Shown here piece by piece: positions 5,415 to 10,490 of a DNA stretch of 10,490 bases. Numbering within the stretch: position 1 is the first letter of the stretch; every line of letters starts with the position of its first letter. The notes below the pieces were generated by a model. It saw nothing but the letters and a program-made list of their open reading frames with translations. It searched no databases and had not been told where the DNA came from. Location: UHGV virus genome UHGV-1619017; one strand, given 5' to 3'. This DNA is from a virus. Both the position numbers and the translations under genes were made by a program.

Positions 5415-7112
5415 TCACTTTTTTTCGTTAACCTTGCCTGTCAGCATGTCGATAGCACCTTCTTTGGCACGAGTCAGACGCAGGCGGGCGAAATAATTCT
5501 CACCGTTGCGCGGGTGGACTTCGTTGATAGCACTACCCCAGAGAGTGGTGCGGTTAACGAGAGATGGATTGGTTTCGTGCACATACGGGATTGCTGGGAC
5601 CGCATCACCAGCGATCAGCCCGGCTTTACCGATGCCTTCACCGCGACCATAGAAATAAATGTCATCCAGACCTAAGTCATATCCCTGAGCCTTGAATTGC
5701 TCACACACAGGCTGCGGCACTTCGTAAATACGAATCGTGCCAAACAGGGTGCCGATGTACTGCACATACGGTGACTGAACGTAGCCCGGCGCGATTTGGA
5801 AGTGCTGTGGAGGCAGAGAACGCAGGAAGTTAGCTGCGTCACCACCTGCGAAGCCACCGCGAATACCTGTGGTCAGGGTGCGGTTTGCCATTTCCTGAGA
5901 CAGGGCGTTTACTGCGTGGCGCAGGAGGCCGACCCAGGACTCATAGTTTTGAGCTTCAGGCAGAGCCACATCAAATTCACGACCATAAACGGTATGGAAT
6001 ACCAGGGTGCGCAGACGCATGATGTCGGTTTCATGGGAGATCCAGTTCCGCATTGCGGAGAACTGAAGTGCCGCCAATTCAAGGCCGTGTTCACGGCTTA
6101 AATCGGAAGCGGACATTACGGTGTGTTCGGAAGCAATTACGTACTGAGACGGTCGAACTTCATACTTACGCATAGCCTGGTTGATTACCGGAATCAGGCT
6201 TGGATTGCGCTCGATGTTAATTTCGACCTGAACCGCAATTTCAGTCCCTTCTGCTGGCGCTTGAGTGAAGGTAATGTCGATGACACCAGTGTCATAAGCG
6301 ACTTTTGCGGTAGCTGAGAATGCATTGCCTTTGCAGTCTTTATCATTGAAATAAAGGTTGCCATCGCCGTCGTCAACCTTGGACGGTTTGCGGTTGATAA
6401 GCAGCTTGTTATAACCAGCACGCAGCGGGCAGGACTGCCCCTCAAAATTTTGGATGTCGAACTGGAAAGTTTTGGTGCTGCCGTCCCCTTTCGTGGAAAG
6501 GGTATACAGGCGCTTCATTTGAGAATAAACACCAGCGGATTGCATATTCAGTTCGTCACCTTGCTCGAAGGTGCCGAATTTTGTGCCTGCTACGTTGACC
6601 AGTTCATAAATATTTGACTCATCACGATCACAAGGAACAAAAGTACAGGCATCACTGGTAGCAGCACCCAGAGAGGCAGGCAGAATTAGTGCAGCATATT
6701 GAGCAACTTTCATTACGCCGTCAGAGCTACGCATTGATTGCGCGACAGACTCAAACATTGCCTTGCCAGTGCCTACGTGTGTATCGCTGGCACATTCAGT
6801 CATCAGGCGTTCAAGTGCCATGTGTGCGTTTGCCAGGATATCGCTTGCCGGGTAGTGACCATGCTGGCGCTTGTACTCATGCAGAGACATAGCCCACCCA
6901 CCAGCGATCTGACGTGCAACCTCTGGATTTACGCCTTCAAACATAGCCTCCTTCTGGATAGCTTTATCCAGGTTCTCCATCATCGCTGCCTGATCAGCAA
7001 TCATATTGCCCGCAGCATCGGTGGTCGGATCGACGGTCATAGCCATGACGCTTGCCGCCCGATTCATAATCTCGCGCTCGCGATCACGAGCTGGCTGAAT
7101 GTTTTTATTCAC
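5415..7112 (-). CDS. Putative major capsid (head) protein precursor, tentative (565 aa)
   Basis: Long ORF immediately upstream of the Ig-like and sheath genes in the same operon. Start at 7112 is GTG (the track shows M) with AGGG about 8 nt upstream. Size and position next to the sheath gene are consistent with a P1-type gene 23-like arrangement, but that is from memory. The Met/Ala-rich helical N-terminal 100-150 aa could be a cleaved propeptide. No motif-level proof of capsid fold. Confidence 0.4.
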   Translation of the reverse strand: MNKNIQPARDREREIMNRAASVMAMTVDPTTDAAGNMIADQAAMMENLDKAIQKEAMFEGVNPEVARQIAGGWAMSLHEYKRQHGHYPASDILANAHMALERLMTECASDTHVGTGKAMFESVAQSMRSSDGVMKVAQYAALILPASLGAATSDACTFVPCDRDESNIYELVNVAGTKFGTFEQGDELNMQSAGVYSQMKRLYTLSTKGDGSTKTFQFDIQNFEGQSCPLRAGYNKLLINRKPSKVDDGDGNLYFNDKDCKGNAFSATAKVAYDTGVIDITFTQAPAEGTEIAVQVEINIERNPSLIPVINQAMRKYEVRPSQYVIASEHTVMSASDLSREHGLELAALQFSAMRNWISHETDIMRLRTLVFHTVYGREFDVALPEAQNYESWVGLLRHAVNALSQEMANRTLTTGIRGGFAGGDAANFLRSLPPQHFQIAPGYVQSPYVQYIGTLFGTIRIYEVPQPVCEQFKAQGYDLGLDDIYFYGRGEGIGKAGLIAGDAVPAIPYVHETNPSLVNRTTLWGSAINEVHPRNGENYFARLRLTRAKEGAIDMLTGKVNEKK

Positions 7113-7270
7113 GGTTAAGCCCTAAATTCGGGCGCGGCGTGAAGGTTCTTTTGACGAGCTAACAATACCAACTTTGTTATTTAGTCAATAGCATTAGTAA
7201 AATAAAATCTATTAACACTTATATTGTTATGTGCTTTAATTTTAGTTTTCTAACACAAATTATTAGAGTT
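7113..7270. promoter_or_regulatory. AT-rich divergent intergenic region between the capsid candidate (minus) and the ribbon-helix-helix gene (plus); putative promoters and operators
   Basis: About 160 bp, markedly AT-rich from 7160. Repeated motif ATTGTTA/TAACAAT: TAACAATA at 7160-7167 (inverted), TTGTTAT at 7175-7181, TATTGTTAT at 7222-7230. Minus-strand TTGACT -35-like hexamer (reverse complement of 7183-7188) without a clean -10. Promoter positions not resolved. Confidence 0.35.
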
Positions 7271-7663
7271 ATGGCGTATCGGATCTTTGTTTCGTATAAA
7301 AATGGCGCTAAAAGCCACTCCCTGAACACAACGAGCCGCTTTCTTGTTGAGGCGCAACTGGCATCAATTCTTGCTGAAAGTGAGATACTCTCCCTCGCTG
7401 AACGAATCGTCATCCAGTTTTCTGGTAGAGATATTCTTAATGTCCCCGCCCTCACCCCGTCCTCCGAAGTCATGGAATCAATTAAATGGCCTGTATGTGG
7501 ATGCCCGGCGAGAGTTGAAGAGCCGGTAACCGCTACGCTCTATATGCCGAAAGCAGTAAGAGACTGGCTTGCTGTGATTGGCAACGGGAAAGTCAGTGCT
7601 GGACTGCGAAAGTTAATTGAAATGGCAGATATTCCAGAGTTAAAAAACGCATGGCGACAATGA
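7271..7663 (+). CDS. Putative DNA-binding protein with C-terminal ribbon-helix-helix-like domain (130 aa)
   Basis: ATG at 7271 chosen over the in-frame ATG at 7229, which lies in the AT-rich promoter region and gives an implausible N-terminus. C-terminus TATLYMPKAVRDWLAVIGNGKVSAGLRKLIEMA fits a strand, helix, G-x-x-S turn, helix pattern like Arc/MetJ/CopG. Weak SD. The competing minus-strand ORF 7219..7473 runs into the AT-rich intergenic region and is judged spurious. Confidence 0.4.
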   Translation: MAYRIFVSYKNGAKSHSLNTTSRFLVEAQLASILAESEILSLAERIVIQFSGRDILNVPALTPSSEVMESIKWPVCGCPARVEEPVTATLYMPKAVRDWLAVIGNGKVSAGLRKLIEMADIPELKNAWRQ

Positions 7664-7680
7664 GTAAACAGGGGGGCAAA

Positions 7681-8139
7681 ATGAGTCACGCGAATCCATC
7701 AAAAACACAATATCGCTTAATGCTGGCGATCGCGTCAGCTATACCAACCAGCCTGAATCCCCCTGCTGGCTATCCCGCTGTTGTTGATGATTGTTTTCAG
7801 TATTACGGTGAAGACATTCTGGGACAGTCGAAAGCACTAAAACAGTTGTGCAAAGCCGGGATTCTTCACTGCATAGGCGATCCGGATGATTTTGTTGTCA
7901 TGCTGGCAGATCGTGACTCTTTTCTGCTGTCCTGGAAAGCCGGGGCGCGCGAAGCGCGTTTGGGGAATGGCATTGGCTACATAGACTATAGCGATTGCCC
8001 GCTGGCATTTGCTGGTGGATATATGCATTGGCATGAGCGAAATAGAGGCCGTCAGCGTCAGTATCGCTTGAGTGACTTTAACGTCTGTCACGGTTTCGAA
8101 GAAGCTGACAGCCAGGACATCTGGCTTCAGGAGCCTTGA
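7681..8139 (+). CDS. Hypothetical Cys/His-rich protein, likely co-transcribed with the upstream ribbon-helix-helix gene (152 aa from ATG 7681)
   Basis: Strong SD AGGGGGG 6 nt upstream of ATG 7681. In-frame ATGs at 7651 and 7660 would overlap the stop of the upstream gene (7661-7663), so the two genes are tightly coupled either way. Contains several Cys and His (C..YY, HC, DCP, HWH, CH) that could bind metal. No family recognised. Confidence 0.4.
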   Translation: MSHANPSKTQYRLMLAIASAIPTSLNPPAGYPAVVDDCFQYYGEDILGQSKALKQLCKAGILHCIGDPDDFVVMLADRDSFLLSWKAGAREARLGNGIGYIDYSDCPLAFAGGYMHWHERNRGRQRQYRLSDFNVCHGFEEADSQDIWLQEP

Positions 8140-8459
8140 TCCCCCTTCCCTTCCCAAATCTCCCTGTTTCTTTGGTTATTCAGTGCGTTTCGTTGGTTGC
8201 ATTCGTCGATCGTGCTGAATAACTGTTCAGCGTATGTCGGATACTTGTTTAACAGCACTGGCGTGTCCTCTGGCACTAAACAAGGGGAGTAATCAATCAG
8301 ATTTGCCTGCGGCTTGCTGGTGGCTTCTACGGTAATTTTCACTGGCACGCTGGTTGATGGCTTTTGCCCGTTCCCGCTGCATCCTGATAACGTCATCAGG
8401 CACACGCACATCGTTAATCCCAGCACGGCGCAACGCATTTTCAAGGCGAGTGATTTCAT
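8127..8459 (-). CDS. o-spanin (Rz1-like outer-membrane lipoprotein spanin subunit), start overlapping the i-spanin gene (110 aa precursor)
   Basis: Strong SD GGGAGGAAA upstream of ATG 8459. Signal peptide ending in lipobox LSGC (MKSLALKMRCAVLGLTMCVCLMTLSGC); mature part is Pro-rich and short with an extra Cys (SPCLVPEDTPV). Overlaps the i-spanin ORF by 167 nt out of frame (8293-8459), the classic overlapped spanin arrangement. Confidence 0.65.
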   Translation of the reverse strand: MKSLALKMRCAVLGLTMCVCLMTLSGCSGNGQKPSTSVPVKITVEATSKPQANLIDYSPCLVPEDTPVLLNKYPTYAEQLFSTIDECNQRNALNNQRNREIWEGKGDQGS

Positions 8460-8793
8460 TCTGGCTTTCCTCCCGCTGTTTGATCAGTCTGTTATTAAGT
8501 TCGGTTGTTTTGCGCTGGTAGTCTTTTTCCAGTTCTTTGATTCTTTCGTTTTCGACCTGCATGGCAGAGCGTGCGCCTTCACTTAACTGCAATGCGGTAG
8601 AAAGCGTGTTGTTCTCGCTTTCCAGTTGTGATTTTGAGTCTTCAAGCGACCGGACATACCTGATGTGTTCGATAACTGCCGTCGTTGTTCGGTAAATTCC
8701 AGAAATGGCTAAAAGCGCAATTACAATCAAAATTATCTTTTTCAAAACCACCCTCTTTAGTTTTTTTGGTGTTAAAAGTGTACCGTTTTGCAT
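8293..8793 (-). CDS. i-spanin (Rz-like inner-membrane spanin subunit) (166 aa)
   Basis: Short basic N-terminus (KKLKRVVLKK), a single hydrophobic transmembrane segment (IILIVIALLAISGIY), then a long charged, coiled-coil-like periplasmic region (SLEDSKSQLESENNTLSTALQ...ERIKELEKDYQRKTTELNNRLIKQREESQNEITRLENALRR). Same architecture as lambda Rz. Its 3' end contains the start of the lipoprotein gene in another frame. Confidence 0.65.
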   Translation of the reverse strand: MQNGTLLTPKKLKRVVLKKIILIVIALLAISGIYRTTTAVIEHIRYVRSLEDSKSQLESENNTLSTALQLSEGARSAMQVENERIKELEKDYQRKTTELNNRLIKQREESQNEITRLENALRRAGINDVRVPDDVIRMQRERAKAINQRASENYRRSHQQAAGKSD

Positions 8794-8818: not shown

Positions 8819-9622
8819 TTATGGTTCCTTTTTGGTGTTCTTTTGGAGCGCATCGATAACGCCTTGTGGCATGATTAAACTGATTGCCGGACTCATTACT
8901 GCATCGTCCAGTAGAGAACCTGTTAACGTGATTGCGACTGCGTTCTCTAAACCTTTGGTTGCCTGAGTTGTTGCCGTTTTAATGCGGTCAGCAAGGGCTA
9001 TGACACTCTCACTTGCTGAATTAATTCCGAAGAGTGAAACTTCAGCTACTGTTACCGCTTCCCGTAAAGCATCAATTTCATCCTGAGTAATGTCCGGAGC
9101 CTGTGCTGCCCCTCCACCAGCCTGTCCACCATCACTATCACCACCAGCACTCCCGGCAGCTTCAATTTTTGCGTTTATGGCGTTCATGGCGGTATTCAGA
9201 TCGTCAAGTTTCAGCGCCGCCAATGCGTCCGTTAATGATTGCGGGATGGAAACATTCCCCATCCCCTCTACCAGGGCGAACGCTGGCGCGGGGATCAGTT
9301 CATTACCTTTTGCGTGGCACTCCCAGCCAATCTTCATCTGTAACAACTCTGATGGCGTGGTGTATGGGGAAAGAGAGTCAGCCAGTGATGAAGAAGACTT
9401 GCTGGCCTCATTGAGCTGTTCGGAAAATCCAAGCAATTGAGTCGTCCAGGCCGACACTGAATCAGGATAGGTTTTATCAGGGTGAACCATTTCCTGTATT
9501 GCGCTCGCGAGTGACGAGGCTTTTGAAGAAGCCGCCAGGCTTATGGTTATTGATTCCGGTGTGGATGCACCAGCACCAGACAGAATTTGGAAGGCTTTAA
9601 CTTCACCTATTGAATCAAGCAT
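8819..9622 (-). CDS. Hypothetical protein, two-part with Ser/Ala-rich N-terminal half and Gly-rich linker (267 aa)
   Basis: ATG at 9622..9620 overlaps the TAA stop of the upstream PAAR-like gene (TAATG, 1-nt overlap), indicating translational coupling. Low-complexity linker AAGSAGGDSDGGQAGGGAAQAP. No transmembrane segment, no catalytic motif I can recognise. Antisense plus-strand ORFs here (9090..9440, 9103..9414) are artefacts. Confidence 0.45.
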   Translation of the reverse strand: MLDSIGEVKAFQILSGAGASTPESITISLAASSKASSLASAIQEMVHPDKTYPDSVSAWTTQLLGFSEQLNEASKSSSSLADSLSPYTTPSELLQMKIGWECHAKGNELIPAPAFALVEGMGNVSIPQSLTDALAALKLDDLNTAMNAINAKIEAAGSAGGDSDGGQAGGGAAQAPDITQDEIDALREAVTVAEVSLFGINSASESVIALADRIKTATTQATKGLENAVAITLTGSLLDDAVMSPAISLIMPQGVIDALQKNTKKEP

Positions 9623-9906
9623 TATGCGACCTGAAAAATATCCTCGCCGTTAGCGATAACAGAACCACAAGAAAGCGGATCGCCTACGCAGACTACTCCC
9701 TTTCCACCTATTGAATACCATGCCCGTGTCGATACAGCCGATCCGGGATGTGCACTGTTGCCATCTGTATGGCTGGGAAACATGGCACCATCCACAACAA
9801 CTGGCTTACCGTTGACGGTGAACCAGGGAACGGTTTCAGCTACCAGTCGCGGCGGAAATCCTCCGTGACCGGAACAAAGTGTGTCGCTGGTGGCTATTGC
9901 GCTCAT
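9622..9906 (-). CDS. PAAR-like small protein, candidate spike-tip protein of a contractile injection apparatus (94 aa)
   Basis: ATG at 9906..9904 with AGGAGA 6 nt upstream. Three repeated beta-turn segments with the spacing of PAAR repeats but degenerate motifs: SDTLCSGHGGFPP, VNGKPVVVDGAMFPSH, GKGVVCVGDPLSCGSVIANG. Compare canonical GD..C..HGG.I, INGKPAAR.GD, VGD...HGG.I. Memory-based, no HMM run. Confidence 0.4.
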   Translation of the reverse strand: MSAIATSDTLCSGHGGFPPRLVAETVPWFTVNGKPVVVDGAMFPSHTDGNSAHPGSAVSTRAWYSIGGKGVVCVGDPLSCGSVIANGEDIFQVA

Positions 9907-9953
9907 TCTTCATCTCCTGGTTATTCGCCTATTGTCATCACTTTGTTATTTCG

Positions 9954-10172: not shown

Positions 10173-10490
10173 ATGCGCATTTTTATCGACGATGGTTCAA
10201 CAAATATCAAAATGCTGTGGGAACACGACGGGGAAACTCGCACGCACATCAGCCCTAACAGCTTTAAGCGCGGATGGTCAGCAACATTTGGTGCTGGCAA
10301 GCCATTTAACTATGTCATTGACGACGAAAAGTATTCGTATGATTTGATCTCGCCAGATGTTCTGCCGACGAATAACGTGGAATGGCAATACAGCCCGCTT
10401 AACGTCCTGGCTGTTCACCACGCCCTGCTGACAAGTGGCATTGAGCCGCAGGAAGTAGAAATTGTGGTTACGCTGCCACTGGCGGAGTTT
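10173..10490 (+). CDS. parM: ParM/StbA actin-like plasmid segregation ATPase (type II partition), N-terminal 106 codons; gene continues beyond the window
   Basis: ATG at 10173 with GGAG about 8 nt upstream. Translation [106 protein letters not shown] closely parallels plasmid R1 ParM as I recall it ([37 protein letters not shown]). Absent from the ORF track because no stop occurs before the window end; the track ORF 10147..10347 is an out-of-frame artefact. Confidence 0.9.

What the first reader, a model, noticed from the sequence alone, without database searches (positions are those of the whole stretch)
7271..8139. Opposite-strand two-gene cassette (ribbon-helix-helix-like protein plus Cys/His-rich protein) inserted between the capsid gene and the lysis/PAAR operon
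Two tightly coupled plus-strand genes sit alone in opposite orientation inside an otherwise minus-strand late region, bounded by an AT-rich divergent promoter on one side and a convergent overlap with the o-spanin gene on the other. The first has a C-terminal ribbon-helix-helix-like DNA-binding pattern; the second is rich in Cys and His and matches nothing I recognise. This fits either a late-gene regulator pair or an accessory moron such as a toxin-antitoxin, defence or anti-defence module.
Basis: inference. Interest (0 to 1): 0.7.

Follow-up and report, generated by a model that had tools for sequence, protein, structure and literature searches.

The report
Repressor-controlled early genes beside capsid gene
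Two real but uncharacterised genes of a D6-like phage-plasmid sit behind what looks like a prophage-repressor operator, so they are probably switched on early in lytic growth, and they are not an obligate pair because the second gene is swapped for another module in some plasmids.

Summary
The window comes from an E. coli D6-like phage-plasmid. The finding corresponds to phage D6 orf52 (7271-7663, 130 aa) and orf53 (7681-8139, 152 aa; it starts at 7681, not 7651, so the two genes do not overlap).

- **Coding:** both plus-strand ORFs are coding. Substitutions fall mainly on third codon positions, and protein homologues go down to 33-45% identity. The minus-strand ORF 7837..8157 is not coding, and 7219..7473 probably is not either.
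- **Homology:** neither protein matches Pfam, NCBIfam, PADLOC or PDB. Their PHROG families have no known function.
- **Regulation (new here):** an 18-bp motif (7243-7260) lies directly after a conserved sigma-70-like promoter. In D6 it recurs before c1, lpa, repL, ref, hrdC-dmt and the cre-adjacent operon, the same operons that carry C1 operators in P1. The unit is therefore most likely a C1-repressed early operon. It does not look like a late regulator pair or a module expressed in the lysogen.
- **Not an obligate pair:** orf52 is in all 101 E. coli D6-like plasmids, orf53 in 91. In about ten plasmids an icd-antirepressor module with its own operator pair replaces orf53 exactly.
- **orf53 elsewhere:** homologues lacking orf52 occur in other phage-plasmids, next to dUTPase, Ref and Tad2-like genes.

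The biochemical function remains unknown. The ribbon-helix-helix reading of orf52 is unproven.

The parts
7212..7240 (+). Predicted sigma-70 promoter of the orf52 unit. It has -35 TTAACA (7212-7217), a 17-nt spacer, an extended -10 TG (7232-7233) and -10 TTTAAT (7235-7240).
   Evidence: Read from the sequence. Equivalent hexamers at the same spacing are kept in D6, Salmonella L005, L016/L032 and L031, although the rest of the spacer is only 69-79% identical in L016 and L005. The tool's scan missed it because its rule requires A at position 2 of the -10 hexamer. This is inferred, not shown.
7243..7260 (+). C1-type operator-like motif TAGTTTTCTAACACAAAT, with core TTTCTAACA at 7247-7255. It lies directly after the -10 hexamer, 10 nt before the orf52 ATG.
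   Evidence: The core occurs 12 times in phage D6, against a mean of 0.8 and a maximum of 5 in shuffles, and 11 of the 12 copies are intergenic. D6 sites lie before c1, lpa (one core mismatch), repL, hrdC-dmt (an inverted pair), ref/orf88, pdcB and the cre-adjacent operon. In the P1 record these same operons carry annotated C1 operators: Oref, Omat, Odmt, Oban, Olpa and Oc1a-e. The motif matches the P1 consensus at 10 of 17 positions, including TCTAA. It is conserved in all five D6-like lineages examined.
7271..7663 (+). orf52 homologue, 130 aa. It has an N-terminal alpha/beta domain (about residues 1-70) and a strongly conserved C-terminal strand-helix-turn-helix segment (about residues 82-120) that may bind DNA.
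   Evidence: It matches phrog_7830 at E 1.7e-77. The AF2 model has mean pLDDT 81.6. Invariant residues cluster in the C-terminal part. It is present in all 101 E. coli D6-like plasmids and was found only in D6-like elements of Enterobacteriaceae. The RefSeq start at 7229 falls inside the predicted promoter.
7670..7676 (+). Shine-Dalgarno sequence AGGGGGG for orf53.
   Evidence: Read from the sequence. It supports the ATG at 7681 as the start.
7681..8139 (+). orf53 homologue, 152 aa. It belongs to a rare family, phrog_8101, with invariant Y41, F81, G88, G95, Y100, F110, G113, H116, C136, H137 and G138.
   Evidence: It matches phrog_8101 at E 1.8e-96. An exhaustive profile search found only 23 clusters at E <= 0.001 among 1.84 billion representatives. 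The family alignment is A3. There is no Pfam, NCBIfam, PADLOC or PDB match. The AF2 model is unusable, with pLDDT 47.7.
7660..8141 (.). Swappable segment. It is exactly orf53, running from the orf52 stop to the o-spanin stop.
   Evidence: In NZ_CP021537.1 (L035) this stretch is replaced by 1.64 kb carrying icd and an ORF6N antirepressor on the minus strand, with its own inverted operator pair. orf53 was found in 91 of the 101 E. coli plasmids that carry the capsid gene and orf52.
8127..8139 (.). Convergent 13-nt overlap between the end of orf53 and the end of the o-spanin gene.
   Evidence: ORF coordinates. No terminator-like site was found in 6900-8500.
7171..7180 (-). Late-promoter-like box ATAACAAAGT, facing the capsid gene.
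   Evidence: The same 10-mer lies upstream of the PAAR/UpfC operon (9949->9940). In D6, one-mismatch variants lie before the lydA holin and orf80. It resembles the left half of the P1 -22 late-promoter box. No copy faces orf52.

Best explanation
The locus is an early lytic transcription unit of a D6-like phage-plasmid, held off in the lysogen by the prophage repressor.

**How it is controlled (inferred).** A sigma-70 promoter (7212-7240) is followed directly by a C1-type operator (7243-7260). C1 bound there would block transcription in the plasmid-prophage state. After induction or infection the unit would be transcribed towards the spanin genes.

**First product, orf52.** It is a small two-domain protein present in every D6-like element examined. 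Its conserved C-terminal strand-helix-turn-helix segment probably binds DNA. I take it to be a lineage-specific early regulator or adaptor.

**Second product, orf53.** It is separable cargo from a rare family with an invariant His...Cys-His signature. The family circulates among P1/D6-sized phage-plasmids of Enterobacteriaceae, Vibrio, Aeromonas and Pantoea. It usually sits in repressor-controlled early operons beside dUTPase, Ref and Tad2-like genes. The most likely role is an early host-takeover, counter-defence or nucleotide/DNA-metabolism function.

**Shown versus inferred.** Coding status, family distribution, motif distribution, the cassette swap and the conservation of promoter and operator are shown. 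C1 binding, timing of expression, DNA binding by orf52 and any activity of orf53 are inferred.
For: - **Operator motif.** The core occurs 12 times in D6, against 0.8 expected, and 11 of the 12 copies are intergenic. The sites lie before c1, lpa, repL, ref, hrdC-dmt and the cre-adjacent operon. These are the operons with annotated C1 operators in P1.
- **Conserved island.** The motif and the adjoining -35/-10 elements are kept in five D6-like lineages in which the orf52 protein drops to 45-50% identity.
- **Same logic in the replacement module.** The icd-antirepressor module that replaces orf53 brings its own inverted operator pair.
- **Homologues elsewhere.** orf53 homologues lie in operons headed by D6-type (L003/L004), variant (L024) or P1-type (L017) operator motifs, next to Cre, dUTPase, Ref, PadR and Tad2-like genes.
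- **Purifying selection.** orf53 shows 4/3/51 changes at codon positions 1/2/3 against Salmonella.
- **Distribution.** The orf53 family is in 138 PLSDB plasmids, 137 of them non-mobilizable. Those listed are about 76-97 kb.
- **No late signal.** No late-promoter-like box faces orf52.
Against: - No experiment or transcriptome was available, so C1 binding and timing rest on analogy with P1.
- The predicted -10 hexamer (TTTAAT) lacks the usual A at position 2.
- No homology or fold match gives a function for either protein.
- The orf53 structure model was unusable.
- The DNA-binding assignment for orf52 is pattern-level only. hhalign against Arc/Mnt/CopG gave the expected register but a probability of 5%.
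- The neighbourhood argument for counter-defence is weak, because phage early regions mix many functions.
Confidence: 0.55

Rival explanations
1. The pair is a toxin-antitoxin, addiction or anti-phage defence module expressed from the plasmid prophage. orf52 would be a DNA-binding antitoxin and orf53 the toxin or effector.
For: - The layout fits: a small upstream gene with a possible DNA-binding tail is followed closely by a conserved gene with invariant His/Cys residues.
- orf52 evolves much faster than orf53.
Against: - There are no PADLOC, Pfam or NCBIfam hits.
- orf53 homologues occur without orf52 in many phage-plasmids and in a Vibrio phage.
- orf52 occurs without orf53 in about 10 E. 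coli plasmids.
- orf52 alleles at 65% identity pair with orf53 alleles at 97% identity, so the two do not co-vary.
- The operator predicts repression in the lysogen, where an addiction or defence module has to be expressed.
- D6 already carries phd-doc and relE/higA modules.
Confidence: 0.1
2. The pair regulates late or morphogenetic genes. For example, orf52 could bind the divergent spacer to tune the capsid late promoter, with orf53 as a co-factor.
For: - orf52 lies next to the capsid promoter region in every D6-like element examined.
- Its conserved C-terminal segment looks DNA-binding.
- In P1 the late activator Lpa is itself a C1-controlled early gene, so early expression is compatible with a regulatory role.
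- The spacer contains blocks conserved beyond the operator.
Against: - A tblastn search of the phage collection hit no Lpa gene of P1 or D6, and D6 has its own lpa homologue.
- orf53 is dispensable, and elsewhere it lies far from structural genes.
- No repeated candidate binding site for orf52 was found other than the motif attributed to C1.
Confidence: 0.15
3. The real genes are the minus-strand ORFs 7219..7473 and 7837..8157, and the plus-strand ORFs are chance.
For: Both minus-strand ORFs are open in the window, at 84 and 106 aa.
Against: - In 7837..8157 all 22 differences from D6 fall on that ORF's own first codon position (22/0/0), which is the pattern of the antisense of a real gene.
- 7219..7473 runs across the promoter and operator.
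- Neither minus ORF matches any Pfam family.
- The plus-strand ORFs have full-length homologues down to 33-45% identity and match PHROG profiles end to end.
Confidence: 0.02

Closest known systems
Phage D6 orf52 (ASR76389) and orf53 (ASR76420)
   Same: They are the same genes at the same position, 96.9% and 98.7% identical at the protein level.
   Different: None in kind. The D6 record calls both hypothetical and notes only a similarity of orf53 to Vibrio phage douglas 12A4 PAG_00037. I could not read the D6 genome paper, so I do not know whether it describes the operator.
C1-controlled early operons of phage P1 (ref, mat, uhr-hrdC-dmt, ban, lpa, c1/coi)
   Same: A sigma-70 promoter is paired with an asymmetric operator of about 17 bp that recurs across the genome. 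The D6 motif matches the P1 consensus ATTGCTCTAATAAATTT at 10 of 17 positions, including TCTAA. It marks the homologous operons.
   Different: P1 has no orf52 or orf53 homologue. In P1 the slot between gene 23 and the spanin-like genes holds parS-parBA-repA-upfA on the minus strand. Binding by D6 C1 is untested.
Ribbon-helix-helix repressors (Arc, Mnt, CopG)
   Same: The orf52 segment TATLYMPKAVRDWLAVIGNGKVSAGLRKLIE aligns in the expected strand/helix/G-x-S turn/helix register with Arc, Mnt and CopG. The model shows two helices at 94-103 and 108-119.
   Different: There is no significant profile, PDB or fold match. hhalign gave a probability of 5% and needed two gaps. The segment could equally be a helix-turn-helix.
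Vibrio phage douglas 12A4 VPAG_00037 and orf53-like genes of P1-like phage-plasmids
   Same: They belong to the same family, at 33-60% identity, with the same length and invariant residues.
   Different: They lack orf52. They lie among early and accessory genes (RdgC, oligoribonuclease, Cre, dUTPase, Ref, PadR, Tad2-like), not next to the capsid gene.

Membership tests
P1-type C1 repressor regulon (early operon) | An operator motif is shared with the repressor gene's own promoter and with other early operons of the same genome. | tested here: met
   The core TTTCTAACA occurs 12 times in D6, against 0.8 expected. Sites lie before c1, lpa, repL, ref, hrdC-dmt, the cre-adjacent operon and orf52. 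The homologous P1 operons carry annotated C1 operators.
P1-type C1 repressor regulon (early operon) | The operator overlaps or abuts a sigma-70 promoter. | tested here: met
   The motif at 7243-7260 starts 3 nt after the predicted -10 hexamer (7235-7240). The arrangement is conserved in five lineages. The promoter is predicted only.
P1-type C1 repressor regulon (early operon) | The repressor binds the site, and the unit is derepressed on induction. | not testable with these tools
   This needs a gel-shift or footprint with D6 C1, and transcript measurements.
Ribbon-helix-helix DNA-binding proteins (orf52 C-terminus) | A significant sequence-profile match to a ribbon-helix-helix family. | tested here: not met
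   Pfam gave no ribbon-helix-helix family for the full protein or for the C-terminal segments of 7 homologues at E <= 10. The PDB profile search gave nothing relevant.
Ribbon-helix-helix DNA-binding proteins (orf52 C-terminus) | A strand-helix-helix fold with a G-x-S/T/N turn, forming an intertwined dimer. | tested here: inconclusive
Type II toxin-antitoxin module | The two genes co-occur as an obligate pair and co-vary. | tested here: not met
   Each gene occurs without the other. orf52 at 65% identity pairs with orf53 at 97% identity.
Type II toxin-antitoxin module | Homology to a known toxin or antitoxin family. | tested here: not met
   There are no Pfam, NCBIfam or PADLOC hits. The only fold similarities to antitoxins are sub-threshold.
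Known anti-phage defence systems (PADLOC) | A match to a defence-system protein model. | tested here: not met
   Neither protein matched any family at E <= 1.
P1 Lpa-type late activation | Homology to Lpa, or a late-promoter box upstream in the sense orientation. | tested here: not met
   tblastn of both proteins against the phage collection hit no Lpa gene of P1 or D6. The late-like box ATAACAAAGT occurs only on the minus strand here.
Known counter-defence proteins (Tad2, Dar and others) | Homology to a characterised anti-defence family. | tested here: inconclusive
   Pfam, which includes the Tad2-like family, gave no match. No dedicated anti-defence library was available. The only support is the neighbourhood with Tad2-like genes in other elements.

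The most novel reading that the evidence does not exclude
orf53 (phrog_8101) founds a new class of early phage-plasmid effector. It would be an enzyme or metal-binding inhibitor built around the invariant His116...Cys136-His137 signature, acting against a host defence or on nucleotide or DNA metabolism. It would move as interchangeable, repressor-controlled cargo between P1-like and D6-like elements. orf52 would be a D6-specific early DNA-binding switch protein, for example a functional stand-in for the C1 inactivator Coi, which is not among the annotated D6 genes.
Probability: 0.2. Interest if true: 0.6.

Novelty: new member of a known kind. Interest (0 to 1): 0.35.

Why it matters
D6-like phage-plasmids are widespread in E. 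coli, Shigella and Salmonella, including clinical lineages (bioRxiv 10.1101/2025.09.12.675607). Most of their early genes have no known function.

Placing this unit in the repressor regulon gives a testable timing and narrows its role. It is unlikely to be an addiction or defence module, or a late regulator. The clean swap between orf53 and an icd-antirepressor module marks the slot after orf52 as an exchange point for early cargo.

The orf53 family is small, almost confined to phage-plasmids, and has a sharp invariant signature. That makes it a tractable candidate for a counter-defence or host-takeover screen. The gain is modest, because these are two of many uncharacterised phage genes and no mechanism has been demonstrated.

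Tried and rejected
- **Family libraries.** Pfam, NCBIfam, PADLOC and PHROGs gave only unknown-function PHROGs for both proteins, the orf53 family alignment and the orf52 C-terminal segments.
- **PDB sequence and profile searches.** Nothing relevant was found.
- **Structure of orf53.** The model, built from the shallow first alignment, had pLDDT 47.7, so I did not search with it.
- **Paralogue and look-alike checks.**
  - D6 orf116, which sits upstream of dut, is not related to orf53.
  - P1 UpfA, also 130 aa and in the same slot, is unrelated to anything in the window.
- **P1 operator consensus in D6.** There was no match at 3 or fewer mismatches, so the D6 motif was found de novo.
- **Literature.** The D6 genome paper and the P1 genome paper are not held. 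No paper mentions the protein accessions.
- **Genome-collection scans.** The single protein found no relatives among species-representative genomes.
- **RNA genes.** Rfam and tRNA scans of the window found nothing.
Full report
**Identity of the window**

The 1.1 kb around the finding is 92.7% identical to Escherichia phage D6. It is up to 98.8% identical to plasmids of about 90 kb in 101 of 5,426 complete E. coli genomes, and it never matches a chromosome. The D6 and RefSeq annotations give this order:

- on the minus strand: tail tube, baseplate, sheath, an Ig-like protein and the capsid;
- on the plus strand: two hypothetical genes, D6 orf52 and orf53;
- on the minus strand: two lysis genes, UpfB-like and PAAR/UpfC-like;
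- then the plasmid stability genes stbA and stbB.

The window is therefore part of a D6-like phage-plasmid, and the finding corresponds to D6 orf52 and orf53.

**Checking the observation**

Both plus-strand ORFs are real genes.

| Comparison | orf52 changes at codon positions 1/2/3 | orf53 changes at codon positions 1/2/3 |
|---|---|---|
| D6 | 4/1/29 | 1/1/31 |
| Salmonella relative (L005) | 39/33/68 | 4/3/51 |
| Divergent relative (L016) | 57/37/84 | 27/13/82 |

Both proteins match PHROG profiles from end to end, at E 1.7e-77 and 1.8e-96. Full-length homologues reach 45% identity for orf52 and 33% for orf53.

The minus-strand ORF 7837..8157 takes all 22 of its differences from D6 on its own first codon position, which is the signature of the antisense of a gene. 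The other minus ORF, 7219..7473, shares third positions with orf52, so that test cannot separate them. It runs through the promoter and operator described below.

The spacer 7113-7270 is AT-rich, with GC 0.29-0.31. The 13-nt convergent overlap with the o-spanin stop (8127-8139) is real.

Two details need correcting:

- orf53 starts at ATG 7681, behind AGGGGGG at 7670-7676. D6 and RefSeq annotate the equivalent start, and the homologues begin there. The genes are 17 nt apart and do not overlap.
- 'Cys/His-rich' means 5 Cys and 5 His, of which only H116, C136 and H137 are invariant in the family.

**What the proteins are**

Neither protein matches Pfam, NCBIfam, PADLOC or any PDB sequence. Their PHROG families have no assigned function.

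*orf52*

- It gave a usable model, with mean pLDDT 81.6. The model shows an N-terminal beta-beta-alpha-alpha-beta-beta-alpha domain (about residues 1-70), a linker, and two C-terminal helices at 94-103 and 108-119.
- Invariant residues cluster in the C-terminal part (P85, Y91, P93, D98, W99, L100, G104, G106, S109, G111, R113).
- That segment aligns with Arc, Mnt and CopG in the expected strand, helix, turn, helix register. It could equally be a helix-turn-helix. DNA binding is therefore a reasonable guess, not a result.

*orf53*

- Its model was unusable, with pLDDT 47.7 from a shallow alignment.
- An exhaustive profile search of 1.84 billion representative proteins found only 23 clusters at E <= 0.001. 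Apart from a few fragments and one spurious repetitive protein, they are single-domain proteins of about 135-152 aa.
- The invariant residues are Y41, F81, G88, G95, Y100, F110, G113, H116, C136, H137 and G138.
- The invariant His...Cys-His trio suggests a catalytic or metal site. That is inference.

**Regulation**

Comparing the spacer with the whole D6 genome showed that the 18-mer just before orf52 is a dispersed motif. Its core, TTTCTAACA, occurs 12 times in D6, against a mean of 0.8 and a maximum of 5 in shuffles. Eleven of the twelve copies are intergenic. With flanks included, D6 sites lie at these places:

- 16 bp before c1;
- 74 bp before lpa (one core mismatch);
- before repL;
- as an inverted pair before hrdC-dmt;
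- between ref and orf88;
- before pdcB;
- just downstream of cre, at the head of the orf117-orf116-dut-orf114-isaA operon;
- 11 bp before orf52.

The P1 GenBank record annotates C1 operators at the homologous places:

| P1 operators |
|---|
| Oref, Omat |
| Odmt, Oban |
| Olpa, Oc1a-e |

The D6 motif matches the P1 consensus at 10 of 17 positions, including the TCTAA centre. I therefore read it as the operator of the D6 C1 repressor.

In the window it lies at 7243-7260. Immediately upstream is a promoter-like arrangement: -35 TTAACA (7212-7217), a 17-nt spacer, TG (7232-7233) and -10 TTTAAT (7235-7240). Both the promoter elements and the operator are kept in D6, a Salmonella lineage, L016/L032 and L031. 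This holds even though the rest of the spacer falls to 69% identity and L016 has a 13-bp insertion. The RefSeq start codon for orf52 at 7229 falls inside this promoter, so 7271 is the better start.

The spacer also carries a late-promoter-like box, ATAACAAAGT, on the minus strand facing the capsid gene. The same box precedes the PAAR operon and, in D6 with one mismatch, the holin gene. No copy faces orf52.

Taken together, this predicts an early, repressor-controlled unit rather than a late unit or one expressed in the lysogen.

**The two genes are not an obligate pair**

- Among complete E. coli genomes, the capsid gene and orf52 are each present in 101 plasmids, but orf53 in only 91.
- In NZ_CP021537.1 the stretch 7660-8141 is replaced by 1.64 kb carrying icd and an ORF6N antirepressor on the minus strand. 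That stretch is exactly orf53, from the orf52 stop to the o-spanin stop. The replacement carries its own inverted pair of the operator motif.
- Conversely, orf53 homologues occur without orf52 in other phage-plasmid-sized contigs and in Vibrio phage douglas 12A4. There they sit among early and accessory genes: Cre, dUTPase, Ref, PadR-like, Tad2-like, RdgC and oligoribonuclease. In several cases the operon is headed by D6-type, variant or P1-type operator motifs.
- In PLSDB the orf53 family is found in 138 plasmids: Escherichia 88, Salmonella 15, Vibrio 13, Citrobacter 7, Shigella 6, Pantoea 5, Enterobacter 2, Photobacterium 1 and Aeromonas 1. Of these, 137 are non-mobilizable.
- orf52 was found only in D6-like elements of Enterobacteriaceae.
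- orf52 diverges far faster than orf53. Identity is 65% against 97% in Salmonella, 50% against 89% in L031, and 45% against 83% in L016.

**Interpretation**

The best-supported reading is a C1-repressed early operon. Its first gene is a lineage-universal protein that probably binds DNA. Its second gene is swappable accessory cargo.

For orf53 I favour an early host-takeover, counter-defence or nucleotide/DNA-metabolism role. The reasons are its neighbours in other elements, its strong purifying selection and its invariant His/Cys signature. This part is weakly supported.

The rivals fare as follows:

- **Toxin-antitoxin or defence module:** disfavoured by separability, lack of co-variation, lack of any model match and predicted repression in the lysogen.
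- **Late-regulator pair:** disfavoured by the absence of any Lpa similarity and by the orientation of the late-like box. An early regulatory role for orf52 alone cannot be excluded.
- **Coding on the minus strand:** refuted for 7837..8157 and unlikely for 7219..7473.

**Comparison with P1**

In P1 the slot between gene 23 and the spanin-like genes mlp and ppfA holds parS, parBA, incA, repA, oriR and upfA, all on the minus strand. UpfA has the same length as orf52 but is unrelated. The D6 lineage therefore has a different block at this position, rather than a simple insertion.

**Novelty and limits**

The genes are already deposited as hypothetical proteins. This analysis adds four things:

- their likely place in the repressor regulon;
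- corrected starts for both genes;
- the fact that the second gene can be swapped;
- the distribution of the orf53 family.

I could not read the D6 genome paper, so the operator may already be described there. No function has been demonstrated.

Noticed in passing
window 7660-8141; L035 5561-7201 (NZ_CP021537.1): In about 10 of 101 E. coli D6-like plasmids, orf53 is replaced exactly by a minus-strand icd plus ORF6N antirepressor module. The module carries an inverted pair of the operator motif. Part of it is about 95% identical to D6 73992-74656, in the orf82 antirepressor region.
   Followed up: partly
window 7171-7180 (-) and 9940-9949 (-): The same 10-mer, ATAACAAAGT, lies upstream of the capsid gene and of the PAAR/UpfC operon. 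In D6, one-mismatch variants also precede the lydA holin and orf80. It resembles the left half of the P1 -22 late-promoter box, so it is a candidate D6 late-promoter element.
   Followed up: partly
window 7140-7156; D6 72061-72077: The 17-mer TGAAGGTTCTTTTGACG lies in the very conserved capsid leader region and recurs exactly in the D6 mat|simB intergenic region. Its role is unknown. The surrounding block 7116-7157 stays nearly unchanged even in the most divergent relatives.
   Followed up: no
D6 89943-89960 (L028); L017 4992-7654: A copy of the operator motif just downstream of cre heads the D6 operon orf117-orf116-dut-orf114-isaA. orf114 is Tad2-like (PF11195, E 7.7e-23). In P1-like contigs the orf53 homologue sits downstream of the cre-like integrase gene, next to dUTPase, Ref and a Tad2-like gene.
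   Followed up: partly
window 8127-8459 (-) and 8293-8793 (-): These are an overlapping pair: an o-spanin (a lipoprotein with an LSGC lipobox) and an i-spanin. Their position and order match P1 mlp and ppfA. Only mlp shows sequence similarity (tblastn E 1e-6), and both match Rz-like spanin PHROGs.
   Followed up: partly
window 9622-9906 (-): The PAAR-domain protein is the P1 UpfC homologue, at 56% identity. The P1 record compares UpfC with T4 gp5.4, so it may be a tail-tip piece rather than part of a lysis function.
   Followed up: no
window 10173-10490 (+): The ParM/StbA plasmid segregation gene starts at 10173 and runs off the end of the window, so it is missing from the ORF list.
   Followed up: yes
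window 7229-7270: RefSeq annotates orf52 from ATG 7229 (144 aa). That codon lies inside the predicted promoter spacer and has no Shine-Dalgarno sequence. All homologues align from the ATG at 7271.
   Followed up: yes
window 7271-7663 compared with L005, L016 and L031: orf52 and its promoter region are far more divergent between D6-like lineages than the flanking capsid gene and orf53. DNA identity to Salmonella is 54-72% across orf52, against 82-92% across orf53. This suggests allele replacement by recombination or much weaker constraint. The cause is unexplained.
   Followed up: partly
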